Shown piece after piece: positions 16,720 through 57,875 of a stretch of DNA of 64,000 bases. The notes beneath the pieces were generated by a model. That model ran no database searches, was not told the origin of the DNA, and was given only the letters and a program-made list of their open reading frames with translations. Every line of letters begins with the position of its first letter. Positions within the stretch are counted from its first letter, which is position 1. Source of the stretch: a virus. A program made the position numbers and the translations under genes. Where the stretch lies: positions 1 to 64,000 of the IMG/VR virus record IMGVR_UViG_3300032323_003201; one strand, 5' to 3'.

Positions 16720-17061
16720 AAAAGGGGGGGATAAGGTGAAAAAGGAGCAAAAAAGAGGCAGTTTTCTATCAAAAACCATGTGATTGAGCATGAAAACAGT
16801 CGTTTTTGGGTGCAAAAAAGGGGGGATAATTTGGCGTTTTTCATGTATTTGCCACCCCCCCTCCCCCCCCCACCCCCCATTTACATATCTTTCTATCATC
16901 TCTAAGTAGTTGAAAACACTACATATTTAATAATACTATATACATGGGGGGAGGGGGGGTATTTTTATTTGAGATGAGAAATATTTTTTTATTTTTTTGT
17001 GCAGACAGATTTAGAAAAATATTTTTTTAGAAGAGGTATACACCCCCCACCCCCCCATCAT
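16720..17061 (+). repeat. Left copy of long inverted repeat (G/C-tract-rich non-coding element)
   Basis: Its reverse complement matches 57531-57875. Example: CCCCCCATTTACATATCTTTCTATCATCTCTAAGTAGTTGAAAACA here vs TGTTTTCAACTACTTAGAGATGATAGAAAGATATGTAAATGGGGGG there. Confidence 0.95.
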
Positions 17062-17183
17062 GTGAAACAAATAAATTAATGCTCTACATTCGATGAAATC
17101 AAGATATTGATAGCAATGGGGGGGGTATGCATATTTTAGAATGACTTTTTGCCTTGTGCTACAATCCAAGCAAAGGAGACACT

Positions 17184-17492
17184 ATGCAAATGAAGATCAA
17201 TACTGCCAGATACACAACCCTTATTCTTATTCTTTTAATCCTGTGCCTATACTTTCCCAATGTGATGGCATGGGTTAGCACAGTAATCACAAGCATGATA
17301 GGTTGGCTGTTATTCACGACTAAGGAACAGACTAAAGCACAAGAAAAAGCAATAGAGGATCATATCCATAGAGCGATTGAAATCCATGACAAGCTGGCAA
17401 GCATGGAAGCTCTCATGCAACATAAGATGGAAAAGGCACGACTTGACGCAAGGGATGAGGCAATCTCTAAGCTAGATGGTGAATGGAAATGA
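17184..17492 (+). CDS. Membrane protein (two TM segments plus coiled coil), possible holin/spanin-type lysis component
   Basis: AAGGAG RBS and a hydrophobic N-terminus. First of three coupled small membrane ORFs upstream of a transglycosylase. Confidence 0.55.
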   Translation: MQMKINTARYTTLILILLILCLYFPNVMAWVSTVITSMIGWLLFTTKEQTKAQEKAIEDHIHRAIEIHDKLASMEALMQHKMEKARLDARDEAISKLDGEWK

Positions 17493-17848
17493 TCAGCCTC
17501 ATCCTACAGCTTGGTCTTTGGGTGAATACGAATGGGGTAGAGCAGCATGTGCCTTGTCCCCTAATCTATGAGCAAGAGCAAAGGTTGCCTGTGGGGTGCA
17601 TGGTGCTAAATCAAGGTGTATTATATTCACCCACACACTACATAGACACTAAAGTGAATGAGTCAGAGGATAAGGTTAAAATTAGTGCATTGGAGGAGCA
17701 AATTGCTTTCCTACAAGCAGAGTTAGTAAAGACTCAAAACCAATTAACAAAATGCCTTATTGAGCCAAAGCCAAGCACAACCCAGCCTTTTATCTATGGT
17801 GTGCTAGGTGGTGCGATTATTACAGGAGCGATATTATGGAACAAGTAA
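17483..17848 (+). CDS. Membrane-anchored coiled-coil protein (possible spanin-like)
   Basis: Hydrophobic N-terminus, central coiled coil and C-terminal TM FIYGVLGGAIITGAILW. Confidence 0.5.
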   Translation: MEMISLILQLGLWVNTNGVEQHVPCPLIYEQEQRLPVGCMVLNQGVLYSPTHYIDTKVNESEDKVKISALEEQIAFLQAELVKTQNQLTKCLIEPKPSTTQPFIYGVLGGAIITGAILWNK

Positions 17849-18072
17849 CTTTAACCTATGCCACACTACTTGGCCTTGTAGGTCTTTTCTATACCTCTCT
17901 CAAAGAGAAGCAAGAGCAAGCCAAATCACTTGGGAAATTAGAAGAGAAGGTGGCTAGTTTAGAAGCCAAACAACAAACTTTACATGAATTAGTGGAAGCT
18001 CTACAAGAAACTAAAATAGCAGTGGCAAGACTTGAAACAAAGATTGACGCTTTACTAGGACATAGACAATAG
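17836..18072 (+). CDS. Small holin-like protein (N-terminal TM plus coiled coil)
   Basis: TYATLLGLVGLFY followed by LGKLEEKV...VARLETKIDAL. Confidence 0.55.
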   Translation: MEQVTLTYATLLGLVGLFYTSLKEKQEQAKSLGKLEEKVASLEAKQQTLHELVEALQETKIAVARLETKIDALLGHRQ

Positions 18073-18081
18073 GAAGGGAAG

Positions 18082-18684
18082 ATGATGGATCAGTACTCAC
18101 TACTTGCATATAGTGCAAACGATGAAATTTTGGCAACAAAAATAACCTATGCACTTACTCGCTATTCTTCAATCTTAGAGCCAGATGACAAGAGCTTGAT
18201 TTGGCGTTGGTCATCTATCATTAAAGAAATCTGTGAGCCTTTTCCCATCACTATTGCCTACCACATGCCACTTCAACATTGCATTGACTTGTTTCAATTC
18301 GATTTAGGTATAAAGATAGTACATATCTCTGAAAATGAGTATTTTTATCCCCATCAAGTGATAGCTCATAGAAAAATTACTAAGGGGAAGGGTGTTATAG
18401 ATGATGAAGCAGAATTGATTTTGAGAGAGAGTATCCACAAGGCCAGAGTGACTTATTTGTCCCTTATAAATCGTGGTGTTGATCATCAAATTGCAAGCCT
18501 GTGCCTTCCTCAATCCATTTTTGTAGACTGCCACCTTCAAGGAGATATCCACACATGGTGTAGTTTCTTCCTTGCTCTCAAAGAAGATAAGCAAGAGTGG
18601 CAGTATATCAAAAAGCATGCAGAGGGAATACAAAAGCTCATCCAAGAGGTATTCCCCAAAACAATGAAAGTGCTAAAGCTATGA
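18082..18684 (+). CDS. Divergent ThyX-like (flavin-dependent thymidylate synthase fold) protein
   Basis: YLSLINRGVDHQIASLCLPQS and ...IQEVFP resemble the ThyX C-terminal half. The canonical RHR-x7-S signature is not recognisable. Confidence 0.5.
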   Translation: MMDQYSLLAYSANDEILATKITYALTRYSSILEPDDKSLIWRWSSIIKEICEPFPITIAYHMPLQHCIDLFQFDLGIKIVHISENEYFYPHQVIAHRKITKGKGVIDDEAELILRESIHKARVTYLSLINRGVDHQIASLCLPQSIFVDCHLQGDIHTWCSFFLALKEDKQEWQYIKKHAEGIQKLIQEVFPKTMKVLKL

Positions 18685-19160
18685 CAGACAGTTTTATTTT
18701 ATGTTGGTGGATCATGATGCAAGTTATTGCACCCACTCAAGATCCTGTATCACCAGCATATAAAAAACAATTAGGTAAAACGATCATGGATAGGGTTGTT
18801 CAGTGCGAACAATTACATGACCATGCAATCAAGCATGATGTGAATAAATATCTTGTGCTTTCACTTGCCTACCATGAAAGTAAATTTGTTCGTAATGCAA
18901 AGAGTAGTAAGGGAGCTGTGGGAGCAATGCAAATCATGCCACAGTACAAGCCTTGTGCCAAATGTAGTGATGCAGAGAATGGTGTGCTTATGCTTAGGAA
19001 AATGCTAGATAATCATGGTGGGGATGAGTGTAAGGCAATTGGCTTTTATGCCACTGGTAAGACCTTGCCAAAGTGTGGGAGCTATGGGAAGAGTATCCAA
19101 GATTTTGCTACAGAGATATTTGATTATGCAGTACTCATGGGAATAGATGAGGGTTGCTAA
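18681..19160 (+). CDS. Lytic transglycosylase (SLT domain)
   Basis: LAYHESKF...AKSSKGAVGAMQIMP catalytic motifs. ATG 18681 overlaps the previous stop. Confidence 0.85.
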   Translation: MTDSFILCWWIMMQVIAPTQDPVSPAYKKQLGKTIMDRVVQCEQLHDHAIKHDVNKYLVLSLAYHESKFVRNAKSSKGAVGAMQIMPQYKPCAKCSDAENGVLMLRKMLDNHGGDECKAIGFYATGKTLPKCGSYGKSIQDFATEIFDYAVLMGIDEGC

Positions 19161-19626
19161 GATGAAGGACAAGTTTTTAAAATTTAGAATTGCTCAGTGC
19201 CTACACCTTGCCACCATGTCCCCCTGTAGTAGGAGACAATTTGGTGCAGTGATTGTAAACCCCACCTCAAATTCGATTTTGGCAGAGGGGTACAATGGCA
19301 CACCAAGAGGACACCAGCACACACTTTGTGGCACTAGCTCTTGCCTTCGTGATTGTGTGCAAAGTGGCACAAAGCTAGAAATTGGCTGTCACCATGCAGA
19401 GGCTAATGCTTTGATGAATGCACTAAGAAATCATGCTGACATTAGGGGTGCTGTCATAATCGTAAGTGGTGAGCCTTGCCTTATGTGTGCAAAATTGATC
19501 CATCATTCAGGTATAGAGAAGGTCTACACAATACAAGGCTCATACTCTGCCAAGGATGGTGTAGACTACTTAATAGAAAACAATGTGCCAGTGCTAAAGG
19601 TCAATGCACAAGGAGAATATTTATGA
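19147..19626 (+). CDS. dCMP deaminase
   Basis: SPCSRRQFGAVIV, GYNGTPRG, HAEANA and PCLMCAK zinc motifs. Confidence 0.92.
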   Translation: MRVAKMKDKFLKFRIAQCLHLATMSPCSRRQFGAVIVNPTSNSILAEGYNGTPRGHQHTLCGTSSCLRDCVQSGTKLEIGCHHAEANALMNALRNHADIRGAVIIVSGEPCLMCAKLIHHSGIEKVYTIQGSYSAKDGVDYLIENNVPVLKVNAQGEYL

Positions 19627-21116: not shown

Positions 21117-21204
21117 AAAACTTGTACATATCCCTAGCTTATCGGACATGTACAATTCATCGTATCTAAAAAACTATTAACGAATAAACCAAAGGTTTTT
21201 TATT

Positions 21205-21594
21205 ATGGCTCAAAAGTTATCCTATACAGTGCCTGCAAAGGTTAGAGCAAATGCCAAGCGTGGATTAAAATTGCGTGCTGAGACAGGTGGCAAGGGTGGC
21301 CTCACAACACAACAAGCTGGCAAGCTAAAAATAGGAAGTGGGGTAGCTCGTGCCAACTCTCTTATTCATGGCAATGTTACCTATGACACCATCAAGAGAA
21401 TGTATTCCTTTTTTTCTAGGCACAAGATTTACAAGGACAAAGGCTACCACAAGGATAGAAAAAGCAAGGCTTATATTAGCTGGCTGCTTTGGGGTGGTGA
21501 TGCAGGTTTTTCTTGGTGCAAGCGAATAATTAGAGAGTATGAGTCATCTACTGAAAAAGGTGTCTTTTTAGATATCGTGCTACAATCACTATGA
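21205..21594 (+). CDS. Basic head-module protein of unknown function
   Basis: GVARA...TIKRMYSFFSRH...WLLWGGDAG motif, which I recognise as recurrent next to phage portal/protease genes. Confidence 0.65.
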   Translation: MAQKLSYTVPAKVRANAKRGLKLRAETGGKGGLTTQQAGKLKIGSGVARANSLIHGNVTYDTIKRMYSFFSRHKIYKDKGYHKDRKSKAYISWLLWGGDAGFSWCKRIIREYESSTEKGVFLDIVLQSL

Positions 21595-21605
21595 AAAGAG
21601 GTGCT

Positions 21606-22775: not shown

Positions 22776-22778
22776 CAA

Positions 22779-23210: not shown

Positions 23211-23219
23211 GAGACACAC

Positions 23220-31671: not shown

Positions 31672-31732
31672 GATTTGCATATGTATATATATATGAATAT
31701 GTGATTTAGATCAAATAAAAAGTTAAATTTTT
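31672..31732 (-). promoter_or_regulatory. Putative early promoter (shared motif) driving the paralog array
   Basis: The minus strand reads AAAAATTTAACTTTTTATTTGATC...TATATATACATATGCAAAT. Confidence 0.55.
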
Positions 31733-31831
31733 AAACTTTTCTTAGATCATAGAAAATAACTAATTTTTATTCTGTTGCATGAATATTAACTATGCTATAT
31801 ATCAAAGCACTTATCTTTTGATGGAGTAAAA

Positions 31832-40794: not shown

Positions 40795-40797
40795 AAC

Positions 40798-42411
40798 ATG
40801 ATTACTACATACACAAGCAGTCAAACTAACCCTCTAGCAAGTCAACATGATAAGATTATTGATCTAGGTAGTGTGAGTTTACCACAAACAGGCATCCAAT
40901 TGTATGGACAAGCTCAAGATAGCAATCACCCATCAGCCAGCTTTCTTTATTCATGGACACTGTCAAAGCCAAGTGGTAGTAATGCATCCTTGAGTAGTAG
41001 CACCATCCAAAACCCCATCCTTAACAATGTTGATATTTGGGGGAATTACAGAGTCTTTTTGATTGCTACCAACACAAGCACAGGTGAGCGAAGTCAGAGC
41101 GATGCTATTATTGCACCATCCACTTCTTTTGTTCATGTTCGTGTCCTATCAGAGAGTAAGGGTCTTCAGAAGCCTGCTGTTGGTGAAAGAAATTGGCAAT
41201 CAAGCTTTAATGACCTAGTGGATAGTGTAGAGAATGATATTGGTGGAGCATCTAGCATGGCACAGCTCACAGATGTAGACACCACTGGCAAGGCTCAAGG
41301 TAAATATGTGAGATATGATGAAGCTAGTCAAAAATTTACCATGCAAGACGCAGATCAAATCATATCTATCCCCCCTGCACTAAATGACCTTTCAGATGTG
41401 AGTGTGTCTAGTGCAACACAGGGTCAAGTGTTGGTGCGTGGTGCAAGTGAATGGGTGGCACAGGATTTAAATGTAAGTGGTGGTGCAACCAAATTGAATG
41501 ATCTTACAGATTGTGCGAATGTCAGTAGTTATCCTTTGAGTGGGGAAATCCTTATGTATGACTCTGCACAAGGGTGGAAAAACCAAAGCATACCATCTGC
41601 ACCAAGTCAAAATTTAAATGTGGGTGCAAACGATGTTATTCTGCCTATCACAGTGGTTGACCTTGCAAATGATAAGCTTTCTTTTCATGGCACAAGTGGT
41701 GAGATTGATGTAGTAAAGACTAAAAGTGGCAATGACCTTAGAATCACCATGAGCCTACCTTCGTCCATTAGTGCAAATGCAAGCACAGCCACAAAGCTTG
41801 CCACAACTCGCTTGATTTCTATTACTGGTGCAGTCAGTGGATCTGCCAGCTTTGATGGAAGTGCACCTATCACAATTGATACAACTTCAAATATCAGCAT
41901 ACCTGCACAGTGGATTACATATAGCCAACAATCAACAGCCACGATTGCTGTGGCTACTAAGGACATATCTAATCCAAATCTAACAGGTGCATTTAGTGAA
42001 GGCACTTTATCAAAGGATTTTAGTAGTGAAATTGCTTTACACCCCCACCTAGTATGGAGAAACAACACAGGCACAACCATTAAGATTACATACATTGACC
42101 TTGTTGTCTTTAGTGGTGGGTCTCAAGATGGTGATGCAGCACCTGCAGATGAGTATACCTTCTCACTTGTGAAATGTGTGACACCTGAAGCACTCGCTTT
42201 AAATACATGGGTTGACCAAAATGTATTAATAGAAGCGATAAGATCCTCCAATGTTAACTATAAAAATCATCGACCCTTACCAGCTTATTTGGATTTGAAT
42301 ACAAACCCTGTGTCTATTCCTAATGGTCAATGGTTTGGGATTAAAGTTTTATCTCACCCTTACCATCATGGCTATGGTCTAGCAGGCACAATCACTGCCT
42401 ATTTAGCATAG
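40798..42411 (+). CDS. Tail fibre-like protein
   Basis: Ig/PKD-like YSWTL.KPSGS, repeated L.DL.DV motifs, and one ATKLATTRLISITGAVSGSASFDGS repeat shared with the 1549-aa fibre. Confidence 0.7.
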   Translation: MITTYTSSQTNPLASQHDKIIDLGSVSLPQTGIQLYGQAQDSNHPSASFLYSWTLSKPSGSNASLSSSTIQNPILNNVDIWGNYRVFLIATNTSTGERSQSDAIIAPSTSFVHVRVLSESKGLQKPAVGERNWQSSFNDLVDSVENDIGGASSMAQLTDVDTTGKAQGKYVRYDEASQKFTMQDADQIISIPPALNDLSDVSVSSATQGQVLVRGASEWVAQDLNVSGGATKLNDLTDCANVSSYPLSGEILMYDSAQGWKNQSIPSAPSQNLNVGANDVILPITVVDLANDKLSFHGTSGEIDVVKTKSGNDLRITMSLPSSISANASTATKLATTRLISITGAVSGSASFDGSAPITIDTTSNISIPAQWITYSQQSTATIAVATKDISNPNLTGAFSEGTLSKDFSSEIALHPHLVWRNNTGTTIKITYIDLVVFSGGSQDGDAAPADEYTFSLVKCVTPEALALNTWVDQNVLIEAIRSSNVNYKNHRPLPAYLDLNTNPVSIPNGQWFGIKVLSHPYHHGYGLAGTITAYLA

Positions 42412-42424
42412 AAAGGATTAGATC

Positions 42425-43261
42425 ATGGAAACTGGCTTTGGCTCACCTACCTATCCCAAGGTTTTTGATAATGGCTTTGGCTCACCATATAGCACCATAC
42501 AAAGAGACACTGGCTTTGGCTCACCCTATGATCTATCTGTATCTAGTAGCTCACTTAGTCAAGTGCTTGTCCCCAACCATGGTGGCACTAGACTTCATAT
42601 CTATGCAGATTGGAAAACCCTAGCAAGCACTACTCGCTATCCCTTTGTTGTGGGTGGCTTTAGGGTGTCTTTCCTAGATAGCATGGGTCTAGTGAAGGCT
42701 GTATCTCATGGGGGTTTTCCCAAGTCTATGGGTGTGTGCTATACAGATGTTTGGCAAACAATGCTTGTGTGCTATGTGCCACCTCTTATCAAAGGCACAT
42801 ATTCAATTTTAGTAGAGTGGGGAAATAACAAAAGCTTGAAGCTTGATGACTCGCTTGTAGTGGTGGATAAATTTAGAGCATCATCTGTTTATTCTATGAG
42901 AAAGCAACTACCACCTTCTTTGGCAACAGGTGCTAGAGATAGTAGACTTGACCCAATCGCACAGGATGAATTTGATTTTGGTGTGCTAGAAAGTCTATTG
43001 CTCACAGTGGGTGAACAAATCCACAACCTCGTAGGCCAACCCACCACAATTCTTTCTATGGATTTTGATGATATTCATGATTTGGTCTTACATGTAGAGA
43101 GTACACTTGGCTTTCCAGAGCAAGGCTCTCTCTTTGTAGAGAATAGAAGATTTACATATACAAGCAAGACAAATACCAGCTTTATTGGTCTTGCTTTTAC
43201 CAAGCTGGCATTGCCAATTTTAAGAGGGGGGGTTGTATCCTATGCTGTCTCCAATAGCTAA
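42425..43261 (+). CDS. Structural/baseplate-associated protein
   Basis: GFGSP x3 at the N-terminus and a VESTLGFPEQG motif seen in virion proteins. Confidence 0.5.
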   Translation: METGFGSPTYPKVFDNGFGSPYSTIQRDTGFGSPYDLSVSSSSLSQVLVPNHGGTRLHIYADWKTLASTTRYPFVVGGFRVSFLDSMGLVKAVSHGGFPKSMGVCYTDVWQTMLVCYVPPLIKGTYSILVEWGNNKSLKLDDSLVVVDKFRASSVYSMRKQLPPSLATGARDSRLDPIAQDEFDFGVLESLLLTVGEQIHNLVGQPTTILSMDFDDIHDLVLHVESTLGFPEQGSLFVENRRFTYTSKTNTSFIGLAFTKLALPILRGGVVSYAVSNS

Positions 43262-44048
43262 AGCAGACCAAATCAAGAATGAAACTCTTTTACATAGAGC
43301 AAGTGGGATTGATTTCCAACGAATGCTTTCTCTCTATGGCTTTCATCGCTTGCCTTTTATCCCTGAGCAATATGTCAGAGAAGCTCTACGATCAGTGGCT
43401 TTTGGTGCAAGAGGCACAATAGGCACTGCCTTTGCCTTCTTTAAAAATTTACTACAAGGTTGGATTGATAGCACAGAAATACAAGTGCTTTCAATTGGTA
43501 GTCGCACACTACAAGGCACAGGCTTTCATACTAGATATGAGGGTAGGTGGTGTGAGATAGATGGTGTCATCCACTACATAGAAAGGGTCAGTGGATCTAC
43601 CAATCTTATTTTTAGTGATATATCCACAAGCTTGTGGAAAAAGGCTAGCTTTAAGGCTGGTGATACATACACAATCAAAATTCTACCTTTTTGGGTTGCA
43701 CAAGACGATTTAGGCTTGCTTGGGATTTACATTGATGGGTCTATATTCAGTGCACCTACCACATACATGAGAGTAGATGGAGAGCCAAGAGAGAATGACC
43801 CACTTGGTGGCATACTTGTACCACAAGCACAAACAAGTGATGACGCACCAGCTCTCTATTTTGCATCAACAGATATATCATCTGTGATTGAATATGCATG
43901 GGAACAGATTTTAGCTGCAGGGATAAGAGGCAAGCTTTTGTCTAGGGAATGGACACCAGAGGGTGAGCCACAAATTTTCTCATCAATTTACAATTCAAAT
44001 TTAGGTTTCTTTGGGGATATCGTGAGTGTAGAGCCTTCCAATTTTTAA
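43242..44048 (+). CDS. Putative baseplate wedge-associated protein
   Basis: Last gene of the structural operon, with ASG.DF.R....YG...GARGT and AAGI patterns. Confidence 0.45.
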   Translation: MLSPIAKADQIKNETLLHRASGIDFQRMLSLYGFHRLPFIPEQYVREALRSVAFGARGTIGTAFAFFKNLLQGWIDSTEIQVLSIGSRTLQGTGFHTRYEGRWCEIDGVIHYIERVSGSTNLIFSDISTSLWKKASFKAGDTYTIKILPFWVAQDDLGLLGIYIDGSIFSAPTTYMRVDGEPRENDPLGGILVPQAQTSDDAPALYFASTDISSVIEYAWEQILAAGIRGKLLSREWTPEGEPQIFSSIYNSNLGFFGDIVSVEPSNF

Positions 44049-44614
44049 GCTCTTGATAACTGCCTAATAATTCTCGCTCTTTCTTCCCTTGCCTCTCGAA
44101 TTGCATCATCAAGGCTCATGAGCTGATCTTGTCGTACACCATTACCTAAATCAGTGCCATCTTGAAGCACGATTTTTTGACCAAAAGCCTTGTGGAAGGG
44201 AATAGCACCTAGAAAGCGATTTCCCCATTTTTCATCTTCATGCACAAGTACATAGATATCAATGACAGTATTTTTTTTAGATTGGGGAACAAGTAAATTT
44301 GAATGTGAATATCTTACACCTTTGATATCCAAGAGGACACCATCATAATTTAAATCGCCTAAATCTGTGCCTTTGATTGCAGAGCGATTACCTGATTTAA
44401 ACACCTGCTCAATATCCAACCCAAGAGTGATGGCCATGCTTGCCTCACATACAATTCCACGAAGCTCAATAGTCTCTTGTGACTCAGTGGATTTCTTTGC
44501 ATCCTTCCACCAAGGCTTGGCTAGGTTTTCTTGGGTGCGTCTCTTGGCTGCTCTTTTGCATCTGTCCATCAAGTCATCTGGGATGGGTGCAAGTGTGTCT
44601 TTTTTTCTAAGCAT
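44045..44614 (-). CDS. Hypothetical protein, possible PD-(D/E)XK nuclease-like fold
   Basis: E...DLGD...LLDIK pattern. GGAG RBS before MLRKK, downstream of the shared promoter motif. Confidence 0.5.
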   Translation of the reverse strand: MLRKKDTLAPIPDDLMDRCKRAAKRRTQENLAKPWWKDAKKSTESQETIELRGIVCEASMAITLGLDIEQVFKSGNRSAIKGTDLGDLNYDGVLLDIKGVRYSHSNLLVPQSKKNTVIDIYVLVHEDEKWGNRFLGAIPFHKAFGQKIVLQDGTDLGNGVRQDQLMSLDDAIREAREERARIIRQLSRA

Positions 44615-44646
44615 TGTATTTCTCCAAAGTTGAAAAAGTTTTTTAG

Positions 44647-44710
44647 ATTTGCTTTGTGAGTATAGCATATAATAAAAAATGCATGTGTACAATGAAAAAG
44701 TTAAAAAATT
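44647..44710 (-). promoter_or_regulatory. Putative early promoter (shared motif)
   Basis: The minus strand reads TTTTTTAACTTTTTCATTGTAC...TGCTATACTCACAAAGCAAAT. Confidence 0.55.
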
Positions 44711-44789
44711 TAAATTTAAGTGGGTGAGGCGTTGCACCTACACCCACAAAAACAAGGCTCGATTGCCACCAACAGAATAAAGGAAAATC

Positions 44790-45230
44790 ATGAGTGTGTC
44801 AAAAGTTGTAATGAAGCCTGCTCTGCTTAGTAGAGAGCAAAAGCATGATATGCAGATAACCCCCAATTTCAATTTGCATGAGCTTGAGTTTAGATCAGTG
44901 ATACCTGATGAATATCTAAGCAATGCAAAGAGCTTATTAATTGAGCTACAAAAGGTCAGAGACGCACTAGGCAAGCCTATCATCATCACAAGTGGCTATA
45001 GGTCATCTGAATATAATAGTGAGATTGGGGGAGCTACGAAGAGCCAACATATCACAGCCAGTGCAGTTGATTGCTATGCTAGCGATATGGATATTAAAGC
45101 ATTTCACAAATTTGTGAGAGATGGTATCAAGGCAAAAAAATGGCAATTTGGGGGATTAGGCTTTTATGATCGTGGGTGGATACATGCAGATATTAGGAAA
45201 TCCCCCCACCTTGTAGAGTGGATTGGCTAG
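44790..45230 (+). CDS. Peptidase M15 (Zn D-Ala-D-Ala-type) endolysin candidate
   Basis: ITPNF...E, ITSGYRS.EYN..IGGA.KSQH...AVD and GGLGFY...WIHAD. Confidence 0.88.
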   Translation: MSVSKVVMKPALLSREQKHDMQITPNFNLHELEFRSVIPDEYLSNAKSLLIELQKVRDALGKPIIITSGYRSSEYNSEIGGATKSQHITASAVDCYASDMDIKAFHKFVRDGIKAKKWQFGGLGFYDRGWIHADIRKSPHLVEWIG

Positions 45231-45232
45231 GC

Positions 45233-46123
45233 TTATTCCCAAATTCGCCAAGCGTCTTTCTCATCAAAAGGCTCACCTTCGTCAACAAGCTCAGTGCAGC
45301 CACAATCAAGAGCGATTTGCATCAAGTCTAGTGCATCACCCTTGTCCCCACTCTCAAGAAATGACTCCCAAGCACAGAGCATGTTCTCTTGCACCCACTC
45401 TCGTGCTTGGGTCAAGGTTTTCAATTTCCCCTCTGGCAAATCATATTGATAGCCATGATTGAAACCATCACCATACACACCACAGGAATACACAGACATT
45501 TTGAAGGTGTCAGTGCTTAGGGACACAAACCAAAGCTTGTCTGCATTGGGTTGGATTGCCTTCATGCTGTCAACCAAGTCTTGGATATCAGTTGCATTTC
45601 TGATGATACGAACCATGTCCAAATACTTGGTCTTCTCTGAGATTGCATTCAAGAAGATTTGCACACCTTGACAGCTACCACGCACACCAAATGACTTGGT
45701 AATGTCAACAATGGTCACACCATTATTTGATACAGTGGTGTCCACAGTGTAGCCATTGATATCCATGGTGCTTGTCTTGATTTCTACTGCATCAATGGTT
45801 GCTTGCTTTTCTGCCTTGAGGGTTGCAAGCTTTTCTTCCAACACTTTGATTTCATCATCAATGGTAGCAACAGTTTCAGCTTGTGCAACAACAACAGGCT
45901 TGTCTTCTACCATGCCTTGTGACTCACAGAGTAAGAAGCACATTTGGACAGAGTAAGCAACTGGCACATACATGAAACCATCATCTTGACGAACAACAGA
46001 GTAGACACCTTCTAGGTGCAATTCAACATTGTACTTGCGACCAGCCTTGTCAACATAGGTGCGTACTAAGGTGGTTGGGTGGGTTTCTTTGGCTTGTGCG
46101 ATGAGTGCATTGAAGTCGATCAT
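45233..46123 (-). CDS. Hypothetical acidic protein (putative early gene)
   Basis: 296-aa ORF with AAGGA RBS, behind the shared promoter motif. Confidence 0.7.
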   Translation of the reverse strand: MIDFNALIAQAKETHPTTLVRTYVDKAGRKYNVELHLEGVYSVVRQDDGFMYVPVAYSVQMCFLLCESQGMVEDKPVVVAQAETVATIDDEIKVLEEKLATLKAEKQATIDAVEIKTSTMDINGYTVDTTVSNNGVTIVDITKSFGVRGSCQGVQIFLNAISEKTKYLDMVRIIRNATDIQDLVDSMKAIQPNADKLWFVSLSTDTFKMSVYSCGVYGDGFNHGYQYDLPEGKLKTLTQAREWVQENMLCAWESFLESGDKGDALDLMQIALDCGCTELVDEGEPFDEKDAWRIWE

Positions 46124-46153
46124 TTTTGTTTTCCTTTAGGATAAAGTTGTTTA

Positions 46154-46215
46154 GTTTGCTTTGTATATATATGTATATAGTATGTATAAAAATAAGTCAA
46201 GTAAAAAGTTAAAAA
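46154..46215 (-). promoter_or_regulatory. Putative early promoter (shared motif)
   Basis: The minus strand reads TTAACTTTTTACTTGACTTATTTT...ATACAAAGCAAAC, with the same 36-nt spacing as at 2020-2066. Confidence 0.7.
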
Positions 46216-46242
46216 AATTAACTTTTTTTAAAGAGGTGTTTT

Positions 46243-46788
46243 ATGACAGAAAAAAATGTGACCAGGTTGGGACAACATATTTATTTTTATGATGAGGTTG
46301 ACCCTGAGTCAATTCATGCTCTCTGTATGCTGCTAAAAGAGGTTGAGAGAGAAAGCAAGTGCAAGCAGGTCAATGATGGCCTTGACAATCCCCCAATCAT
46401 CCACCTTCATGTTCATAGCTATGGGGGTGATGCCTACTCTGGTCTAGCAGGTGCAAGTGCTGTGCTTGGGTGTAGTGTGCCTATTCATACATATGTAGAG
46501 GGGGGTGTGGCTAGTGCTGCTACACTGCTCACTATGGCAGGCAAGAAAAGATTTATTCACTCACTTAGCTTTATGCTGATCCACCAAATCAGCACTTGGA
46601 CACAAGGCACATATGAAAACCTACTAGACAGCAAGGACAATTCAACACAGCTCATGCAGACCTTCTACGATTTCTATGAGAGCAAATCAAAGCTCAAGGC
46701 TAAACAAATCAAAAAAATTCTAAAGCGTGATTTGTGGTTTAGTGCATCTGACTGTAAGGCTTTTGGATTGGTGGATGAAATCCTATAA
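46243..46788 (+). CDS. ClpP-like serine protease
   Basis: IHLHVHSYGGD, VEGGVASAATLL (Ser), MLIHQ (His) and RDLWF...FGLVDEIL. Confidence 0.85.
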   Translation: MTEKNVTRLGQHIYFYDEVDPESIHALCMLLKEVERESKCKQVNDGLDNPPIIHLHVHSYGGDAYSGLAGASAVLGCSVPIHTYVEGGVASAATLLTMAGKKRFIHSLSFMLIHQISTWTQGTYENLLDSKDNSTQLMQTFYDFYESKSKLKAKQIKKILKRDLWFSASDCKAFGLVDEIL

Positions 46789-46793
46789 AAAGC

Positions 46794-46821
46794 AAAAAGC
46801 CACCTTTTACAGTGGCCTTTT
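46794..46821. terminator. Possible bidirectional intrinsic terminator
   Basis: AAAAAGCCAC-loop-GTGGCCTTTT between convergent genes. Confidence 0.5.
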
Positions 46822-46874
46822 AACTTGTTCAACTCAACCCAATCAACACACAAACTGTCTTCCTATCCAAGACT

Positions 46875-47741
46875 TTAAAACTGTGCCTCTTCCCATGTCT
46901 CACAATCTTCATCAAACTTTACCATGTCATCATGAATTGTGTCAAGGAAGTCAATCAAATTTGTTTGGGTGGTAGTGTAGGCACTCTTGCCACTTGCTCT
47001 ATCATACCACTGGCACAAGGTGAAATCTTCATCATCACTTGCAATTAGTAGATATTCTGTCTTGCCATAGGTGACCAAGAGTCTGTCTTTGATACCAGGT
47101 GCACGATTGCGATTATAGGCCATGAGAAAGGTATCATCCTTGATTTCACAAGAGAGACCAAGGATCTGTGCCTTTTGGTAAGCCTCTGCAATGGTTTCTT
47201 CCTTGATACGAATTTCAGCTTGCTCTGAAGTCTCGAACAGCTCTGCCACTTGCACCTCACCATAAGCCTCATCTAGCTTGCTCATACATGAGTCAAGGTT
47301 GTGTGTCAAAAACTTGAGACTGCTCTGCAATTGGTCAACCATTTTAAAGCTGTCCTTAACCATGTTCTTGAGAGACATGACTTGATCAACACATGGACAA
47401 TCATCATCTTGCATAGCTTGGATTTCAATAGCAGCAGTTTCAATGACCTGAGCAACTTGATTGACAGTTTCAACAACAGCATCTACCAAGGTGTGTACTT
47501 GGTTTGTTGTTTCTTCTGCCACTTGTTCAAACACGATTTCAAATTGAGCGATGCCAGTCATTTTGTAGCCAAGTCTTTTAGCGATAACAACAAGGATGGG
47601 TGTAAAGGGTGAGCTGGTGATTTCATCTTGTGACAATGCATTGCCTTGTGCGTCTACTAGAGAGAAGATACAGCCTTCAGAAACGATATGAGCTTGTGCT
47701 TTGGTGCTGGTGTGTGTAAATTGAAAAATTGACTTCATCAT
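46875..47741 (-). CDS. Hypothetical acidic coiled-coil protein (putative early gene)
   Basis: 288-aa ORF with GGAG RBS, behind the shared promoter motif. Confidence 0.7.
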   Translation of the reverse strand: MMKSIFQFTHTSTKAQAHIVSEGCIFSLVDAQGNALSQDEITSSPFTPILVVIAKRLGYKMTGIAQFEIVFEQVAEETTNQVHTLVDAVVETVNQVAQVIETAAIEIQAMQDDDCPCVDQVMSLKNMVKDSFKMVDQLQSSLKFLTHNLDSCMSKLDEAYGEVQVAELFETSEQAEIRIKEETIAEAYQKAQILGLSCEIKDDTFLMAYNRNRAPGIKDRLLVTYGKTEYLLIASDDEDFTLCQWYDRASGKSAYTTTQTNLIDFLDTIHDDMVKFDEDCETWEEAQF

Positions 47742-47773: not shown

Positions 47774-47835
47774 GTTTGCTTGTGTCTTATATTTATCACT
47801 ATGCAAAAAAGAAGTCAAGTAAAAAGTAAAATTTT
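47774..47835 (-). promoter_or_regulatory. Putative early promoter (shared motif)
   Basis: The minus strand reads TTTTACTTTTTACTTGACTTC...ACACAAGCAAAC. Confidence 0.65.
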
Positions 47836-48855
47836 TTAACTTTTTTTAATCTCATCATCCCATAGCCAAAAGTTTTGATCGTTTTTTCTTCGTGTCTTGC
47901 GTGGTGGCAGACCTAGTTTTTTCACAATTGCACAGATATATGAGATAGAAACCTCAAGGGATTCAGCTATTATTTTGTTGGGGTATCCCTTTTGCCTCAT
48001 GTTTTTTATCTTCTCCAGTAGTAAGTGTGTCTTATATTTATTTATGAGAAAGTGATTTAATTTATAAGTGTAAATATATGATTTAATAGTGCTTGGAGCT
48101 TTGCATAGGATATCTGCAATCTCCTCTACACTAAGATTTTGCTCAAGCAAGCCTCTTATCTTAGAAGCAGGCACAGCCTTGTATGCAGGTGCATCCATGA
48201 CTTTGATTTGGTAGCTGCATAGGTAGGTTTGGATTGTGCGATGGGATAGACCAAGCTCACTGGCTATCTCTTTGGCACATAAACCCTCTGCCAGCTTTGC
48301 AAAGAAATATTCAGCAGGTGGCTTTTTGGTCTTCATGGTAAAGCCAGTGGTGTGCCTAATCTTAGCCACATAGCATGCTCTTGTCCCTACGAATTTAGCA
48401 ATCTGCTCATTCGTAAGACTCGTGTCATTTCCCAAATATTCAACAATCCTTGTGGCCTTGCTCTTTTTACGATTTTTATCATATAGCTCAACATAGCCAT
48501 ATTTGACAATAGCTCTTCGCACAGAGTCACGATGGACACCTAGCTTTTTAGCCATGTATGCTGTGGATTTACCAGCTAGGATCATCTTATATAGATCCTT
48601 GGGTGAGATTGCTTTAGGCTGTGGCTTGGTCTTGATATGTCCCAAATATACATAAATGAGACGCAAGATTGTGCCTTCCATTTTATGTATCTCCCCCCAA
48701 GCATCAAGACCTATCTTTTTGACAATTTTTGATTCAACCTTTTCATCCAATCCCATGCTTTCAAGCACAGGCTTGCACCTTTCAGTGAGCTGTTTCTTTA
48801 CAAGTGGGTCATCTTGCATCTCAATACAGAGAGCAAGTAATTGTAGATCATCCAT
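47836..48855 (-). CDS. Basic protein with about five tandem HTH motifs
   Basis: MAKKLGVHRDSVRR, EQIAKFVGT, KEIASELGLSHRTI, EEIADILCKAPSTI and IIAESLEVSISYI. Confidence 0.75.
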   Translation of the reverse strand: MDDLQLLALCIEMQDDPLVKKQLTERCKPVLESMGLDEKVESKIVKKIGLDAWGEIHKMEGTILRLIYVYLGHIKTKPQPKAISPKDLYKMILAGKSTAYMAKKLGVHRDSVRRAIVKYGYVELYDKNRKKSKATRIVEYLGNDTSLTNEQIAKFVGTRACYVAKIRHTTGFTMKTKKPPAEYFFAKLAEGLCAKEIASELGLSHRTIQTYLCSYQIKVMDAPAYKAVPASKIRGLLEQNLSVEEIADILCKAPSTIKSYIYTYKLNHFLINKYKTHLLLEKIKNMRQKGYPNKIIAESLEVSISYICAIVKKLGLPPRKTRRKNDQNFWLWDDEIKKS

Positions 48856-49938: not shown

Positions 49939-49941
49939 GTT

Positions 49942-51759: not shown

Positions 51760-51877
51760 TTGTGTATCCATGTGGGTGGGGGTTTGCTTTGAAACCAAAG
51801 ATAACAAAAATATTTTAGATTGTATAGATAATTGTTTATATTTTATTTTTTATGAAAGATTTACTTATTCCGATTTA

Positions 51878-52825: not shown

Positions 52826-52829
52826 TTTA

Positions 52830-54548: not shown

Positions 54549-54633
54549 TTCATGTCTCCTTTGAATGGTTTTTCACTATATCCAAAACACAAGAAGCATG
54601 ATGAAATTTTGAAACTCGTATCTCAGTCGTATT

Positions 54634-55482
54634 TCATTTATGACAAGCTAGACACACCTTAACAGATCCATAAACATCATCTGTATCAAGGGAGCATGAT
54701 CCACCCTGTAGTAAATTTGTGCGTCTTTTCTTTGCTTGCTTGTCTTGATATTGTTGCTTTCTCTTCTCATAGTCAGCTTTGATTTGAGCTACCCTCTCTG
54801 GTTGTGCTAGTTGCTCAAGGCTTTCATTCTCTGACCAAGTGAAAAAATAGCCATCCTTGATACTACTCTTTTCATAATCGATAGCCTCTTGAAAGGCTTG
54901 GGGGTGTCTCTCAAGTAACCCAACCCATTCAATCTTTCTTTGGAAAAAGCAAAAGGTGCATCCACTTCTACTTCTCCATTCATAGTATTGTGGTAAACCA
55001 AGACCAGCATCACTAAGTAGGCTCATGACTCTTGGCTTATCAATGCCATTTTCCCTAAGAGGGAGCTTAATGATTAGGTTTGAGTCTTTTGATTGGTATC
55101 CCTCTCTAAACTCTTCATCTGCACGAATAGCCACATAAGAATAAACTGTATAGCCTTCTTCTAAGAATGCCTGCACCCAATCTTCAAAGGGTTTCAATTT
55201 CATCTTTATGGTGCACCATCGATCAGTGGCACTTGGTAAATAATTACCATGTTGTCTAAGCCAAAAGTCAAAATCTCTCTTAGAGTCAAGTCTATTGATC
55301 TTCTTTCTAAGATAACCCTCTAGCCTATTTAGAAAATCATAGGTTTCAGGCAATTCTTTACCTGTATCTGTGAAGAAATACTCAATATCAATATCAGGGT
55401 GATATGTTCTCATGTAGACTGCAAGGCCTGCACTATCCTTACCACCAGATATACCAAGCACATGTTTTTCTTTTTTAAGCAT
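54634..55482 (-). CDS. PAPS-reductase-family (PP-loop) protein, SspD/DndC-like
   Basis: HVLGISGGKDS, DTGKELPET, RWCT..MK, WRSRSGCTFCFFQRKIEW and C-terminal CLACHK. Confidence 0.85.
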   Translation of the reverse strand: MLKKEKHVLGISGGKDSAGLAVYMRTYHPDIDIEYFFTDTGKELPETYDFLNRLEGYLRKKINRLDSKRDFDFWLRQHGNYLPSATDRWCTIKMKLKPFEDWVQAFLEEGYTVYSYVAIRADEEFREGYQSKDSNLIIKLPLRENGIDKPRVMSLLSDAGLGLPQYYEWRSRSGCTFCFFQRKIEWVGLLERHPQAFQEAIDYEKSSIKDGYFFTWSENESLEQLAQPERVAQIKADYEKRKQQYQDKQAKKRRTNLLQGGSCSLDTDDVYGSVKVCLACHK

Positions 55483-55484
55483 GA

Positions 55485-56567: not shown

Positions 56568-56627
56568 GTGTTTTGTCCTTTCATAAAAAGTGAGACACTA
56601 TATAACAAAAAAATTCAAGCTTGTTGT

Positions 56628-57161
56628 TCAAATTTGATCTAGCACCTTAATGAAATCAGGCAAGAGGTTAGCAAGCATGGGGATTGGTTTACCTACTGCA
56701 AGCAAGTCAGCCTCTGTGAAGCTCTTCTTTTCATAATCCCTAAATTTGATCCATGGACAAATAAACCACTTATTATCTAGTCTCACAAGCACAACTGCAA
56801 TTTGTCCCCAAGATACTCGTCTATCAAGTTGTTCCCACTGGTAAGGGTCAATCGCACTCTTTTGGATTCGTAAGCCTTCTCTTGATTTGCATTCTAAATA
56901 GCCAGCTTTCCCACTAGGTAGCCAAATCTCAAAATCACAGCCAGCTTTTTCACTATATACTGCATGAAAGCAATTTTTGCCACTACCTACTCTTTTATAA
57001 GGCTCATGTCTCTTACACAGCTCTGCAATCCCATGCTGTAGGTAGAATGCACCAATCTCTAAGATTTGTTCCTCTGCTGTCTTACCTTGTCTTTGTGCAC
57101 GCAAGCCTGCTGCACTTTTCTCTGTCAATTGCCTTGGCATAAACCCTCTTCTCTTATTCAT
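56628..57161 (-). CDS. recU: RecU-like Holliday junction resolvase
   Basis: G...EE.I......Y...GIA..CK..EP, CDF, LECKS and YQ.EQL pattern. Confidence 0.7.
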   Translation of the reverse strand: MNKRRGFMPRQLTEKSAAGLRAQRQGKTAEEQILEIGAFYLQHGIAELCKRHEPYKRVGSGKNCFHAVYSEKAGCDFEIWLPSGKAGYLECKSREGLRIQKSAIDPYQWEQLDRRVSWGQIAVVLVRLDNKWFICPWIKFRDYEKKSFTEADLLAVGKPIPMLANLLPDFIKVLDQI

Positions 57162-57297
57162 AGCTTGTCCTTTCAAATCGTTGAACATGATCTAAGGATA
57201 CAATAAATTGACTATATACAGGCTGGCTATTTGAGCAGAGATTAAAAATAATGCCTTTAATCTTTTAGGGGGGGATAGGTATCTTTGGGGGGGTGCT

Positions 57298-57335
57298 TTT
57301 GACTAAAAAGGCAGTGAATTTGACTAAAAAAGGCA
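57298..57335 (+). repeat. Iteron-like direct repeat TTTGACTAAAAA(A)GGCA x2
   Basis: Directly visible in the non-coding region next to the right inverted-repeat copy. Confidence 0.75.
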
Positions 57336-57530
57336 TGGAAAGCTTAAAATTTAGGGTCAAAAAGAGGGGGGTAAATTGACCATTTTGGCAAAAATCAGAG
57401 CCTTGCTCAAAAACAGACACCCCCCCCATGCAAAAATCATGTGTGATTGAGCGAATAGCACAGTATAGATAAACCCTTGAATTACAATATATTTTACCAT
57501 GTGATGGACATTAACTTTATCATGGGGGGT

Positions 57531-57875
57531 ATGATGGGGGGGGTGGGGGTGTGTATACCTCTTCTAAAAAAATATTTTTCTAAATATGACTACACAAAAA
57601 AATAAAAAAATATTTCTCATCATCAAATAAAAATACCCCCCCCTCCCCCCATGTATACAGTGTTATTAAATAATCAATGTTTTCAACTACTTAGAGATGA
57701 TAGAAAGATATGTAAATGGGGGGTGGGGGGGGTACTCCCTCATGAAAAGTGGTAAAAGTGCCAAATTATCCCCCCTTTTTTGACCCTAAAAATGACAGTT
57801 TTTTGATGAAATTTGATACTTTTTGATAGATTTCCATCACTTTTTGAGCCTTTTTTAGCCTTATCCCCCCCTTTT
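57531..57875 (-). repeat. Right copy of long inverted repeat
   Basis: Reverse complement of 16720-17061, with a near-identical core and more diverged flanks. Confidence 0.95.

What the first reader, a model, noticed from the sequence alone, without database searches (positions are those of the whole stretch)
16720..57875. ~340-bp inverted repeat pair 40.5 kb apart brackets the virion and nucleotide-metabolism block
Seen: the two largest non-coding gaps (16560-17150 and 57190-58030) contain the same element in opposite orientation (16720-17061 vs 57531-57875), with a near-identical core and diverged flanks. Genes at both inner edges are transcribed inward. The left copy splits the packaging module, with terL on one side and the portal on the other. 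Inference: this is either (a) a pair of opposed replication origins or other cis-sites, or (b) a substrate for flipping the 40-kb segment into two genome isomers, by homologous recombination (Cas4-like exonuclease and RecU are encoded) or by the nearby serine recombinase. The copies are diverged, so they are unlikely to be an assembly collapse. Block-wise conservation suggests selection on function.
Basis: partly seen in the sequence, partly recalled or inferred. Interest (0 to 1): 0.82.

Follow-up and report, generated by a model that had tools for sequence, protein, structure and literature searches.

The report
Conserved inverted repeat pair in phage
Two diverged copies of a G-run-studded control region sit in opposite orientation 40 kb apart in an uncultured 72-kb tailed phage, its relatives keep their own matching pair at the same two places, and whether the segment between them really flips is still open.

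Summary
The repeat is real. 16720-17061 matches the reverse complement of 57531-57875 at 83% over 348 nt. The core is 92% identical and the outer part 65%.

The window is 64 kb of a 72,061-bp circularly assembled myovirus record. A complete relative is collinear and has its own 398-nt inverted pair (86%) at the same two junctions. That pair shows no similarity to this one, although the genes are about 76% identical. The two copies therefore evolve in concert, which means they recombine with each other.

Each copy faces its inward operon. Each carries A-tract/G-run boxes and a C-run/G-run clamp followed by a T-tract.

Flipping is not shown. Both complete genomes have one orientation. Opposite joins occur in 2 contigs of one lineage and in one k=31 contig, but only where the repeat is collapsed in assembly, so they may be path artefacts.

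A Gin-like invertase (about 50% identical to Mu Gin) lies 4.5 kb away. No gix-like site is present in the repeats.

Best reading: a duplicated cis-control or origin-like module, homogenised by gene conversion, with inversion as a likely but unproven by-product.

The parts
16720..17061 (+). Left copy of the inverted repeat. It lies between the stop of the 1549-aa fibre ORF (16558) and the first inward ORF (17154).
57531..57875 (-). Right copy, in the opposite orientation. It lies in the divergent gap between the RecU-like gene (start 57188, - strand) and ORF 58035 (+ strand).
16863..17061 (+). Near-identical core of the left copy: 187 of 203 alignment columns identical to the right copy. Order: C-run block, 66 nt AT-rich, G6AG7 plus T-tract, 83 nt AT-rich, C6AC7 block.
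57531..57732 (-). Core of the right copy. Read on the - strand it carries C8AC6, G6AG8 plus T-tract, then C5AC8.
16855..16971 (+). Clamp. The C7TC9AC6 block (16855-16878) pairs with G6AG7 (16946-16959) in the minimum-energy fold. A T/U-rich tract follows directly. The fold energy is -39.6 kcal/mol as RNA, z -3.0.
57625..57732 (-). The same clamp in the right copy: C8AC6 with G6AG8, then the T-tract. RNA fold -49.9 kcal/mol, z -4.2.
16720..16835 (+). Outer (distal) part of the left copy, with two A-tract + G6-7 + ATAA boxes (G runs at 16724 and 16820). It is 65% identical to the right copy.
57754..57875 (-). Outer part of the right copy, with the same two boxes (runs at 57770 and 57865).
57268..57427 (-). 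Extra boxes found only in the right gap, between the core and the RecU-like gene, in the opposite orientation to the outer boxes (runs at 57268, 57287, 57366, 57420). 57350-57386 is an inverted match of 57754-57790, so the right gap has internal dyad symmetry.
17118..17125 (+). G8 box between the left core and ORF 17154. A matching G8 box lies at 57420-57427 on the right.
56628..57188 (-). RecU-like Holliday junction resolvase, the first gene inward of the right copy.
   Evidence: Pfam RecU, E 3.7e-4, below the cut-off; phrog_843, E 4.6e-18
62335..62934 (+). Gin/Hin-type small serine DNA invertase homologue (Resolvase + HTH_7), 4.5 kb outside the right copy. It is conserved in relatives G001 and G006.
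3359..4537 (+). PD-(D/E)XK (Cas4/RecB-like) nuclease, a possible partner in phage recombination.
17154..17492 (+). First ORF inward of the left copy. It heads the block that continues through the ThyX-like gene, SLT, dCMP deaminase, portal, protease, capsid and sheath.

Best explanation
The two repeats are copies of one cis-acting control module. They sit at the two junctions between the 40-kb inner block and the 31-kb outer arc of a circularly assembled myovirus genome. The inner block holds the virion, nucleotide-metabolism and clamp/RecU genes.

Each copy points towards the operon that runs inward from it. Read inward, each copy contains:
- an array of boxes, each an A-tract plus a G6-8 run plus a short lineage-specific word;
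- a C-run block;
- about 66 nt of AT-rich DNA with a weak sigma-70-like site;
- a G6AG7-8 block followed at once by a T-tract;
- about 83 nt of AT-rich DNA;
- a second C-run block.

Shown: the pair is ancestral to the clade, and its two members are kept alike by sequence exchange (gene conversion through homologous recombination) while the module as a whole drifts as fast as other non-coding DNA.

Inferred: the module acts on DNA or on the nascent transcript. The most likely role is a transcription stop or R-loop-forming leader, possibly serving as a transcription-primed origin. The right-hand gap would be the main divergent origin/promoter hub and the left-hand copy a partial duplicate.

Crossovers between the copies would invert the 40-kb block. 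Both operons carry the same upstream module, so either orientation should be viable. This is predicted, not demonstrated.
For: Repeat and anatomy. Of the 38 G or C runs of 6 or more in the genome, 23 lie in the two gaps, which make up 2% of the sequence.

Conservation of place with turnover of sequence:
- The complete relative G001 is collinear with this genome.
- G001 has its own inverted pair, 6440-6834 against 38825-38431, 86.2% over 398 nt, 91 nt from the portal-operon start and about 430 nt from RecU.
- blastn finds no match of the G000 element in G001, G003, G004 or G005, and only a 20-39-nt G-run hit in G002.
- Pairwise comparison of the elements gives G000 left against right 83.3%/348, G000 right against the orthologue L041 right 72.9%/291, and G000 left against L041 right 73.2%/261. 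G000, G001 and the G006 lineage share only 15-54-nt G-run words.

The same architecture appears in the G006 lineage, L041 and L042/L009.

Clamp plus U-tract: in 6 of 6 versions folded, the minimum-energy structure closes the C-block/G-block helix immediately before the U-tract.

The only word shared by all 8 versions compared is a G-run followed by TATC.

G6AG7 followed by a T-tract is the commonest human mtDNA CSB2 variant. There it stops POLRMT, and such G-tracts also stop T7 RNA polymerase (PMC5027508, passages).

The detrended cumulative GC-skew minimum is at 57,179, the edge of the right gap.

No canonical hairpin terminator lies in either gap.

Recombination genes are present: a Holliday junction resolvase and a PD-(D/E)XK nuclease.
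Against: - There is no direct evidence of function: no RNA run holds the region and no Rfam family matches.
- Promoter-like sites are no more frequent than in shuffled sequence: 3 against 3.9, and 4 against 3.7.
- The TACTAT -10 of the left copy is not kept in the right copy or in L041.
- Fold z-scores are modest or null in 4 of the 6 versions: 0.0, -1.5, -1.7 and -2.3.
- The clamp loop of 66-105 nt is far larger than in known intrinsic terminators.
- The GC-skew minimum coincides with the switch of gene strand, so it is not independent evidence. There is no skew inflection at the left copy.
- The central base of the G/C blocks is not always complementary (an A faces an A in three of the four possible C-block/G-block pairings across the two G000 copies). 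This fits repeated protein sites as well as it fits a helix.
Confidence: 0.5

Rival explanations
1. Flip-flop isomerisation. Homologous recombination between the two copies inverts the 40-kb block often enough that both genome isomers coexist in natural populations, as in chloroplast inverted repeats, herpesvirus L/S segments and the terminal segments of phage Matilda. This does not exclude the best explanation. It adds the claim that flipping really happens at appreciable frequency.
For: - Concerted evolution shows that the copies recombine.
- In one lineage both junction types are assembled.
  - G006 (63,017 bp) joins the fibre genes through the repeat to RecU, with the inner block inverted relative to G000 and G001.
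  - G007 (8,041 bp, another sample, with a different fibre end) has the same join.
  - G008 and L044, which are 97-99.9% identical to G006, have the G000-type join.
- In run X2, which holds 99% of the query words, a 5,409-nt k=31 contig joins the outer-right flank and the right-type outer repeat to the left-type core and the portal operon.
- Many contigs stop at the repeats: 6 of the 7 that reach the left junction, and 7 of the 15 that reach the right one.
- The phage encodes a Holliday junction resolvase and a nuclease.
- The Matilda preprint shows flip-flop in a phage by PCR and long reads (10.64898/2026.10.21.760668, passages).
Against: - Both complete genomes, whose copies can be told apart by reads (longest exact words 55 and 67 nt), have the same orientation.
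- L041 and L042 also show the G000-type join. Overall the tally is 6 G000-type, 2 opposite and 1 odd.
- In the G006 lineage the core is identical in every contig, and no contig ever crosses into the portal side: 0 of 4 crossing contigs, and 5 matches all next to RecU. A path from the fibre side then has only one way out of the collapsed core, so the opposite join can arise from a G000-type genome.
- The X2 contig passes through the 55- and 35-nt exact words at k=31, and the competing left branch stops inside the C-run at 16866. It proves nothing.
- A 50:50 mixture should have broken the assemblies of G000 and G001.
Confidence: 0.35
2. Site-specific inversion. The Gin-like serine invertase at 62335-62934 recombines short sites inside the two repeats and flips the 40-kb block, as Gin flips the G segment of Mu.
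For: - The protein has the Resolvase and HTH_7 domains.
- Its best solved relatives are Gin DNA invertase (4m6f, 3uj3; E 3.5e-50), ahead of gamma-delta resolvase at 1.6e-28.
- It is about 50% identical to Mu/D108 Gin.
- The gene is kept 4.5-7 kb outside the right repeat in G000, G001 and G006.
- No small invertible fibre segment that could be its target was found at 40000-47000.
- The repeats are in the inverted orientation that an invertase needs.
Against: - The central palindrome of the Mu gix site, read from NC_000929, has 1 match with at most 1 mismatch in the window, at 23297. None lies in the repeats, and chance would give 2.2.
- A scan with a recalled invertase site consensus ranks the best repeat site (16766) no higher than about 20 other places, and the right copy has no counterpart.
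- No word beyond G-run+TATC is shared by all repeat versions, although the recombinase is conserved.
- Site-specific exchange does not homogenise 200-400 nt of flanking sequence.
- Known Gin-type segments are a few kb long, not 40 kb (recalled, and quoted in the Matilda preprint passages).
Confidence: 0.08
3. Selfish or neutral repeat. This would be a small mobile element or a chance duplication that landed in two gaps and has no role for the phage.
For: The element is non-coding, AT-rich with homopolymer runs, and changes fast between lineages.
Against: - It occupies the same two junctions in all lineages seen.
- It always has the same orientation relative to the inward operons.
- No third copy exists in the 72-kb genome.
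- It has no terminal repeats or target duplications of its own.
- The shared block order is kept while the sequence turns over.
Confidence: 0.06

Closest known systems
Inverted-repeat isomerisation of whole genomes: chloroplast IR, herpesvirus L/S inversion, and the yeast 2-micron plasmid (recalled). For phage Matilda, preprint 10.64898/2026.10.21.760668 (passages read).
   Same: An inverted pair splits the genome into two unique arcs. The copies evolve in concert. Recombination between them predicts two isomers. In herpesvirus and chloroplast the repeats carry origins (recalled).
   Different: These repeats are 0.35-0.56 kb and non-coding, not 1.5-25 kb with genes. The copies are 6-35% diverged rather than identical. 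Coexisting isomers are not shown. The genome is a circular assembly, not a linear molecule with terminal segments.
Gin/Cin/Hin invertible segments: Mu G segment (NC_000929) and P1 C segment.
   Same: A phage-encoded Gin-type invertase, about 50% identical to Gin. Inverted repeats. Fibre genes next to one repeat.
   Different: The segment is 40 kb, not about 3 kb. The fibre ORF ends 160 nt before the repeat, so no alternative C-termini are made. No gix-like site lies in the repeats. The repeats are hundreds of nt long and evolve in concert.
Human mtDNA conserved sequence block 2 (PMC5027508, passages read; PMC3488243, abstract in the listing). Also the ColE1 RNA II persistent hybrid (recalled).
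   Same: A discontinuous G-tract, G6AG7 or G6AG8, on the non-template strand, followed by a T-tract. C-runs lie nearby. The position is next to AT-rich DNA where replication could be primed.
   Different: No single-subunit RNA polymerase gene was seen among the ORFs scanned. No transcript or replication data exist. The likeness is one of motif only.
Iteron-type origins and divergent early-control regions of phages and plasmids (general knowledge).
   Same: Arrays of short boxes in both orientations flank AT-rich DNA in the main divergent gap. The GC-skew minimum lies there.
   Different: No initiator was identified. The boxes contain G6-8 runs. A second partial copy lies 40 kb away in the inverted orientation.

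Membership tests
Gin/Hin-type invertible segment | A small serine DNA invertase is encoded in cis. | tested here: met
   Resolvase + HTH_7 domains. Gin structures 4m6f and 3uj3 match at E 3.5e-50. About 50% identity to Mu Gin.
Gin/Hin-type invertible segment | Two inverted crossover sites of about 26 bp with dyad symmetry, of the gix/hix type, at the segment borders. | tested here: not met
   The gix centre read from Mu has 0 matches with at most 1 mismatch in the repeats. A scan with a recalled consensus gives no paired high-scoring site. A site of different specificity cannot be excluded.
Gin/Hin-type invertible segment | A segment of a few kb that switches alternative gene ends. | tested here: not met
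   The segment is 40.5 kb. The fibre ORF stops at 16558, before the repeat. No small inverted pair lies around the fibre-like genes at 40000-47000.
Gin/Hin-type invertible segment | Both orientations are present in a population. | tested here: inconclusive
   6 G000-type, 2 opposite and 1 odd join among the contigs. The opposite joins occur only across a collapsed core.
Recombination-driven inverted-repeat isomerisation (chloroplast, herpesvirus, 2-micron, Matilda) | An inverted pair divides the replicon into two unique arcs. | tested here: met
   40.5-kb and about 31-kb arcs in G000, and the same in G001.
Recombination-driven inverted-repeat isomerisation (chloroplast, herpesvirus, 2-micron, Matilda) | The copies evolve in concert. 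| tested here: met
   Paralogues are 83.3% and 86.2% identical. Orthologues are 72.9-73.2% identical or not alignable.
Recombination-driven inverted-repeat isomerisation (chloroplast, herpesvirus, 2-micron, Matilda) | The two isomers coexist, shown by reads or PCR across the repeats. | tested here: inconclusive
   Only k=31 contigs were on hand, with no raw or long reads. The IMG contigs are ambiguous.
Iteron-type or transcription-primed replication origin | Repeated boxes flank an AT-rich unwinding stretch. | tested here: met
   Box arrays, plus 66- and 83-nt AT-rich stretches between the G/C blocks.
Iteron-type or transcription-primed replication origin | Strand-composition switch at the site. 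| tested here: inconclusive
   The detrended skew minimum at 57,179 is at the right copy but coincides with the gene-strand switch. There is none at the left copy.
Iteron-type or transcription-primed replication origin | Initiator binding and replication start mapped to the site. | not testable with these tools
   Needs infected-cell coverage profiles or 2D gels.
Rho-independent terminator | GC-rich stem with a short loop, then a U-tract. | tested here: inconclusive
   The canonical scan finds 0 in both gaps. A 9-15-pair G:C clamp followed by a U-tract is predicted in 6 of 6 versions, but with loops of 66-105 nt.
Any curated RNA family (Rfam 15) | A match at the gathering score. | tested here: not met
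   0 matches in the window at gathering score. At the E-value threshold there are only sub-threshold hairpin-like hits.

The most novel reading that the evidence does not exclude
A clade of uncultured freshwater-type myoviruses keeps twin, inward-facing, R-loop-type origin/leader modules as a short inverted pair. Recombination between them, by the phage's own resolvase and nuclease or by its Gin-like invertase, flips 40 kb of a 72-kb genome. Virions would then carry two genome isomers. During bidirectional replication, such a flip could convert theta replication to rolling-circle replication, as proposed for the 2-micron plasmid.
Probability: 0.25. Interest if true: 0.8.

Novelty: new variant of a known kind. 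Interest (0 to 1): 0.6.

Why it matters
Inverted-repeat genome isomers are textbook for chloroplasts and herpesviruses. In my literature searches they turned up for phages only in one 2026 preprint on a jumbo phage.

A short, non-coding pair that is conserved and evolves in concert, splitting a mid-sized phage genome in two, would be a compact system to study three things:
- how phage recombination shapes genome architecture;
- whether gene order relative to origins matters;
- what G-run/C-run clamps do at control regions.

There is also a practical consequence. These repeats break or mis-join metagenomic phage assemblies: 13 of the 22 contigs that reach a junction stop there. Orientation calls in viral catalogues for this clade should therefore not be trusted without long reads.

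Tried and rejected
- Close DNA relatives among cultured phages: none for the left gap. The capsid protein reaches only 23-27% identity in the listed records, to Bacillus, Listeria (A511), Bacteroides and other phages, so no host can be named.
- GTDB genomes: no relative of the RecU-like protein or the portal.
- Further viral-contig scans brought no new junctions. Queries were the clamp protein, ORF 58213, ORF 17154, the first outer-right ORF of G006, a portal alignment, and a 30-nt core word.
- Rfam and tRNA scans: nothing.
- Promoter and terminator consensus scans: not above shuffled sequence.
- RNA evidence: no RNA holder listed.
- Runs X5 and X6, laid on 16300-17500, cover the flanks but leave most of the gap uncovered. 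A hole proves nothing.
- Small invertible fibre segment as the invertase's real target: no convincing inverted pair in 40000-47000 or in 57000-66500.
- Small proteins next to the repeats (58035-58238, and its G006 counterpart) gave only non-significant Pfam hits, E 0.05-0.17.
- Assembly collapse: rejected (X1 records 3 and 4).
- Supplementary files of the two papers read were not consulted. The Matilda supplements may hold relatives with similar repeats.

Full report
**What the window is.** The window is bases 1-64000 of a 72,061-bp IMG/VR virus record whose ends overlap by 123 bp, which indicates a circular assembly. It is a myovirus.

Going round from the right-hand gap, the outer arc carries:
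- an HsdM-like methylase (58974);
- a nucleoside deoxyribosyltransferase-like gene;
- Dam;
- a small serine recombinase (62335-62934);
- a second N6 methylase;
- a VapE-type primase-helicase;
- ThyX;
- DNA polymerase A (45-2003);
- a PD-(D/E)XK nuclease (3359-4537);
- an SNF2-like helicase;
- TerL (6836-8524);
- two long repeat-rich fibre ORFs (8856-16558).

The inner block carries:
- small ORFs, a ThyX-like gene, an SLT lysin and dCMP deaminase;
- portal (true start probably 19623), protease, an SU10-type capsid protein, sheath and baseplate;
- then, on the minus strand, a multi-HTH protein, ribonucleotide reductase, a PAPS-reductase-like gene, a beta clamp and a RecU-like Holliday junction resolvase.

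**The observation.**
- The outer 143 nt are 65% identical and the inner 203 columns are 92% identical. The longest exact shared words are 55 and 35 nt.
- No third copy exists in the genome.
- The copies lie in the two largest ORF-free gaps, and each has the same orientation relative to the operon that leaves it inward.
- An independent k=31 assembly of run X1 contains both the left-type and the right-type middle segments at equal depth, so the pair is not a collapse.

**Anatomy.**
- Of the 38 G or C runs of 6 or more in the genome, 23 lie in these two gaps, which are 2% of the sequence.
- Read inward, each copy has two boxes (A-tract + G6-7 + ATAA), a C-run block, 66 nt of AT-rich DNA, G6AG7 (G6AG8 on the right) followed at once by a T-tract, 83 nt of AT-rich DNA, a C6AC7 block and, further in, a G8 box.
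- The right gap has three more boxes in the opposite orientation between the core and RecU, which gives it internal dyad symmetry.
- Folded as a single strand, the first C-block pairs with the G-block just before the T/U-tract. This happens in 6 of 6 versions from four lineages, with z-scores of -3.0, -4.2, 0.0, -1.7, -1.5 and -2.3.
- No Rfam family, tRNA or canonical terminator is present, and promoter-like sites are not enriched.

**Relatives.** Portal and RecU queries brought 21 viral-contig loci and 6 metagenome loci.
- The complete relative G001 (72,735 bp) is collinear with G000 at about 76% DNA identity in genes.
- G001 has its own inverted pair (86.2% over 398 nt, longest exact word 67 nt) at the same two junctions.
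- That pair shows no similarity to the G000 element beyond G-run words.
- The orthologous right copy of the nearer relative L041 is 72.9% identical to G000-right and 73.2% to G000-left, while G000-left against G000-right is 83.3%.
- The G006 lineage, L041 and L042/L009 all show the same block order with different words. In L042 the whole right gap is a 684-nt imperfect palindrome.
- The only word common to all eight versions is a G-run followed by TATC.

The pair is therefore ancestral. Its sequence turns over as fast as other non-coding DNA, yet its two members stay alike. This is concerted evolution, which requires sequence exchange between the copies.

**Does the 40-kb block flip?** Contigs often stop at the repeats. 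Of the 7 that reach the left junction, 6 end there and 1 crosses. Of the 15 that reach the right junction, 7 end there and 8 cross.

Among crossing contigs plus G000:
- the join at RecU is of the G000 type (methylase side|repeat|RecU) in G000, G001, G008, L041, L042 and L044;
- it is of the opposite type (fibre|repeat|RecU) in G006 and G007;
- it is odd in L043.

G006 is a 63-kb contig in which the whole inner block is inverted relative to G000 and G001. G008 and L044 are 97-99.9% identical to it yet carry the other join. Taken at face value, this is the signature of two isomers in one lineage.

I do not take it at face value, for three reasons.
- In that lineage the core and the RecU-side flank are identical in all contigs, and only the outer parts differ.
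- No contig ever continues from the core into the portal side: 0 of 4 crossing contigs, and all 5 matches of a core word lie next to RecU. Portal-side contigs stop in a C-run a few bases from their unique sequence.
- With that edge missing, a path that enters the collapsed core from the fibre side has a single exit, towards RecU. An ordinary genome would then yield exactly the G006 layout.

The same holds for the one opposite join in G000's own strain. Record 7 of run X2 (5,409 nt) links the outer-right flank and the right-type outer repeat to the left-type core and the portal operon. But it is a k=31 contig that runs through 55- and 35-nt exact words, and the competing branch stops inside the C-run at 16866.

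The two complete genomes, whose copies reads can tell apart, agree in orientation. All runs on hand were k=31 contigs, with no raw or long reads. Flipping is therefore physically likely, given that the copies demonstrably recombine, but it is unproven. A 50:50 equilibrium is unlikely for G000 and G001.

**The recombinase.** The 199-aa protein at 62335-62934 is a Gin/Hin-type invertase homologue.
- Its best solved relatives are Gin (E 3.5e-50), ahead of gamma-delta resolvase at 1.6e-28.
- It is about 50% identical to Mu Gin.
- The gene is kept 4.5-7 kb outside the right repeat in G000, G001 and G006.

I read the gix site from the Mu record. Its central palindrome has no match with at most 1 mismatch in the repeats; the window has 1 match, at 23297, against 2.2 expected by chance. 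A recalled consensus gives no paired site either. No small invertible fibre segment was found.

Site-specific exchange would not homogenise 200-400 nt. The invertase's target remains unknown. It is a minor candidate for flipping the block.

**What the module may do.**
- The G6AG7 + T-tract is, letter for letter in its G-tract, the commonest variant of human mtDNA CSB2. There a hybrid G-quadruplex/R-loop stops POLRMT, the same kind of tract stops T7 RNA polymerase, and primers for replication are formed (PMC5027508, passages; PMC3488243, abstract in the listing).
- Three further features point the same way: the flanking C-runs, the AT-rich stretches and the box arrays; the position of the right copy in the main divergent gap at the GC-skew minimum of 57,179; and the lack of canonical terminators after the 4.6-kb fibre ORF.
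- My best guess is an inward-facing transcription-stop/R-loop module that serves as leader control and possibly as a transcription-primed origin.
- This is inference from motif and position. The skew signal is confounded with gene strand, and the left copy has no skew inflection.

**Comparison and novelty.**
- The nearest known kinds are inverted-repeat isomerisation (chloroplast, herpesvirus and 2-micron plasmid, all recalled) and the terminal segments of phage Matilda (preprint passages).
- Four full-text searches combining phage terms with inversion, isomer or flip-flop terms returned only that preprint as a phage case. A fifth, on invertases and large inversions, returned one paper on restriction-modification rearrangements, seen in the listing only.
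- This case differs in four ways: the repeats are short and non-coding; the copies are diverged but evolve in concert; the repeats bracket over half of a mid-sized genome; and a Gin homologue lies beside them.
- I file it as a new variant of a known kind.

**Verdict.** Genome isomers are still to be shown.

Noticed in passing
window 9670-11420, 12311-14047, 14374-15375: The two fibre ORFs (8856-11903 and 11909-16558) are built of long in-frame tandem repeats: 282-nt units 5-6 times, 42-nt units, and 75/162-nt units. One unit recurs in the fibre-like ORF at 41803-41881.
   Followed up: no
window 1990-2077, 31702-31745, 46143-46231, 47791-47849: A second family of intergenic repeats, an AT-rich hairpin word next to a TTGACT-like word, marks four operon borders in both orientations. 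These are probably shared promoters or bidirectional terminators, distinct from the G-run module.
   Followed up: no
G000 64746-64793 (L047:7747-7794): A 48-nt palindrome whose arms resemble invertase half-sites lies inside an unknown 328-aa ORF, 1.8 kb downstream of the Gin-like gene. It is a possible recombinase site.
   Followed up: partly
window 42446-42471: A perfect match to one half of the recalled invertase site lies at the start of ORF 42425-43261, next to fibre-like genes that converge (42425-44048 on +, 44045-46123 on -). No inverted partner was found.
   Followed up: partly
window about 53758; G001 43307-44406; G009 15412-16514: Relatives G001 and G009 carry an insertion of about 1.1 kb at the same point of the ribonucleotide reductase large-subunit gene. 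G000 and G006 lack it. An intein or a homing intron is likely.
   Followed up: no
window 18082-18684, 19147-19626, 54634-55482, 58974-64252; G000 70747-71595: There are many nucleotide and DNA-modification genes: two ThyX-like genes, dCMP deaminase, a PAPS-reductase-like gene, a deoxyribosyltransferase-like gene, Dam and two N6 methylases. The DNA may be modified, which could matter for the G-runs.
   Followed up: no
L043 1-1800: One metagenome contig has a 118-nt copy of the RecU-side flank, then a 1.4-kb insert with a distant homologue of ORF 58213 in the reverse sense, then only the inner half of the repeat. This is either a rearranged variant or a chimera.
   Followed up: partly
L012 1-4677: A 6.2-kb viral contig joins the C-terminal 328 residues of the portal to 4.6 kb with no similarity to G000, G001 or G006.
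   Followed up: partly
G006 lineage repeat core; L041 4524, 4622: Homopolymer lengths differ between near-identical strains: C8, C8, C9 and C10 in the first block, and G7 or G8 in the last. They reach G11 and C10 in L041. This may be real slippage or sequencing error.
   Followed up: no
window 47836-48855; L035 1230-2304: Proteins made of three to four repeated HTH units (sigma-70 region 4 / resolvase-HTH like) are encoded in G000 and, next to the right repeat, in G006. They are candidate binders of the box arrays.
   Followed up: no
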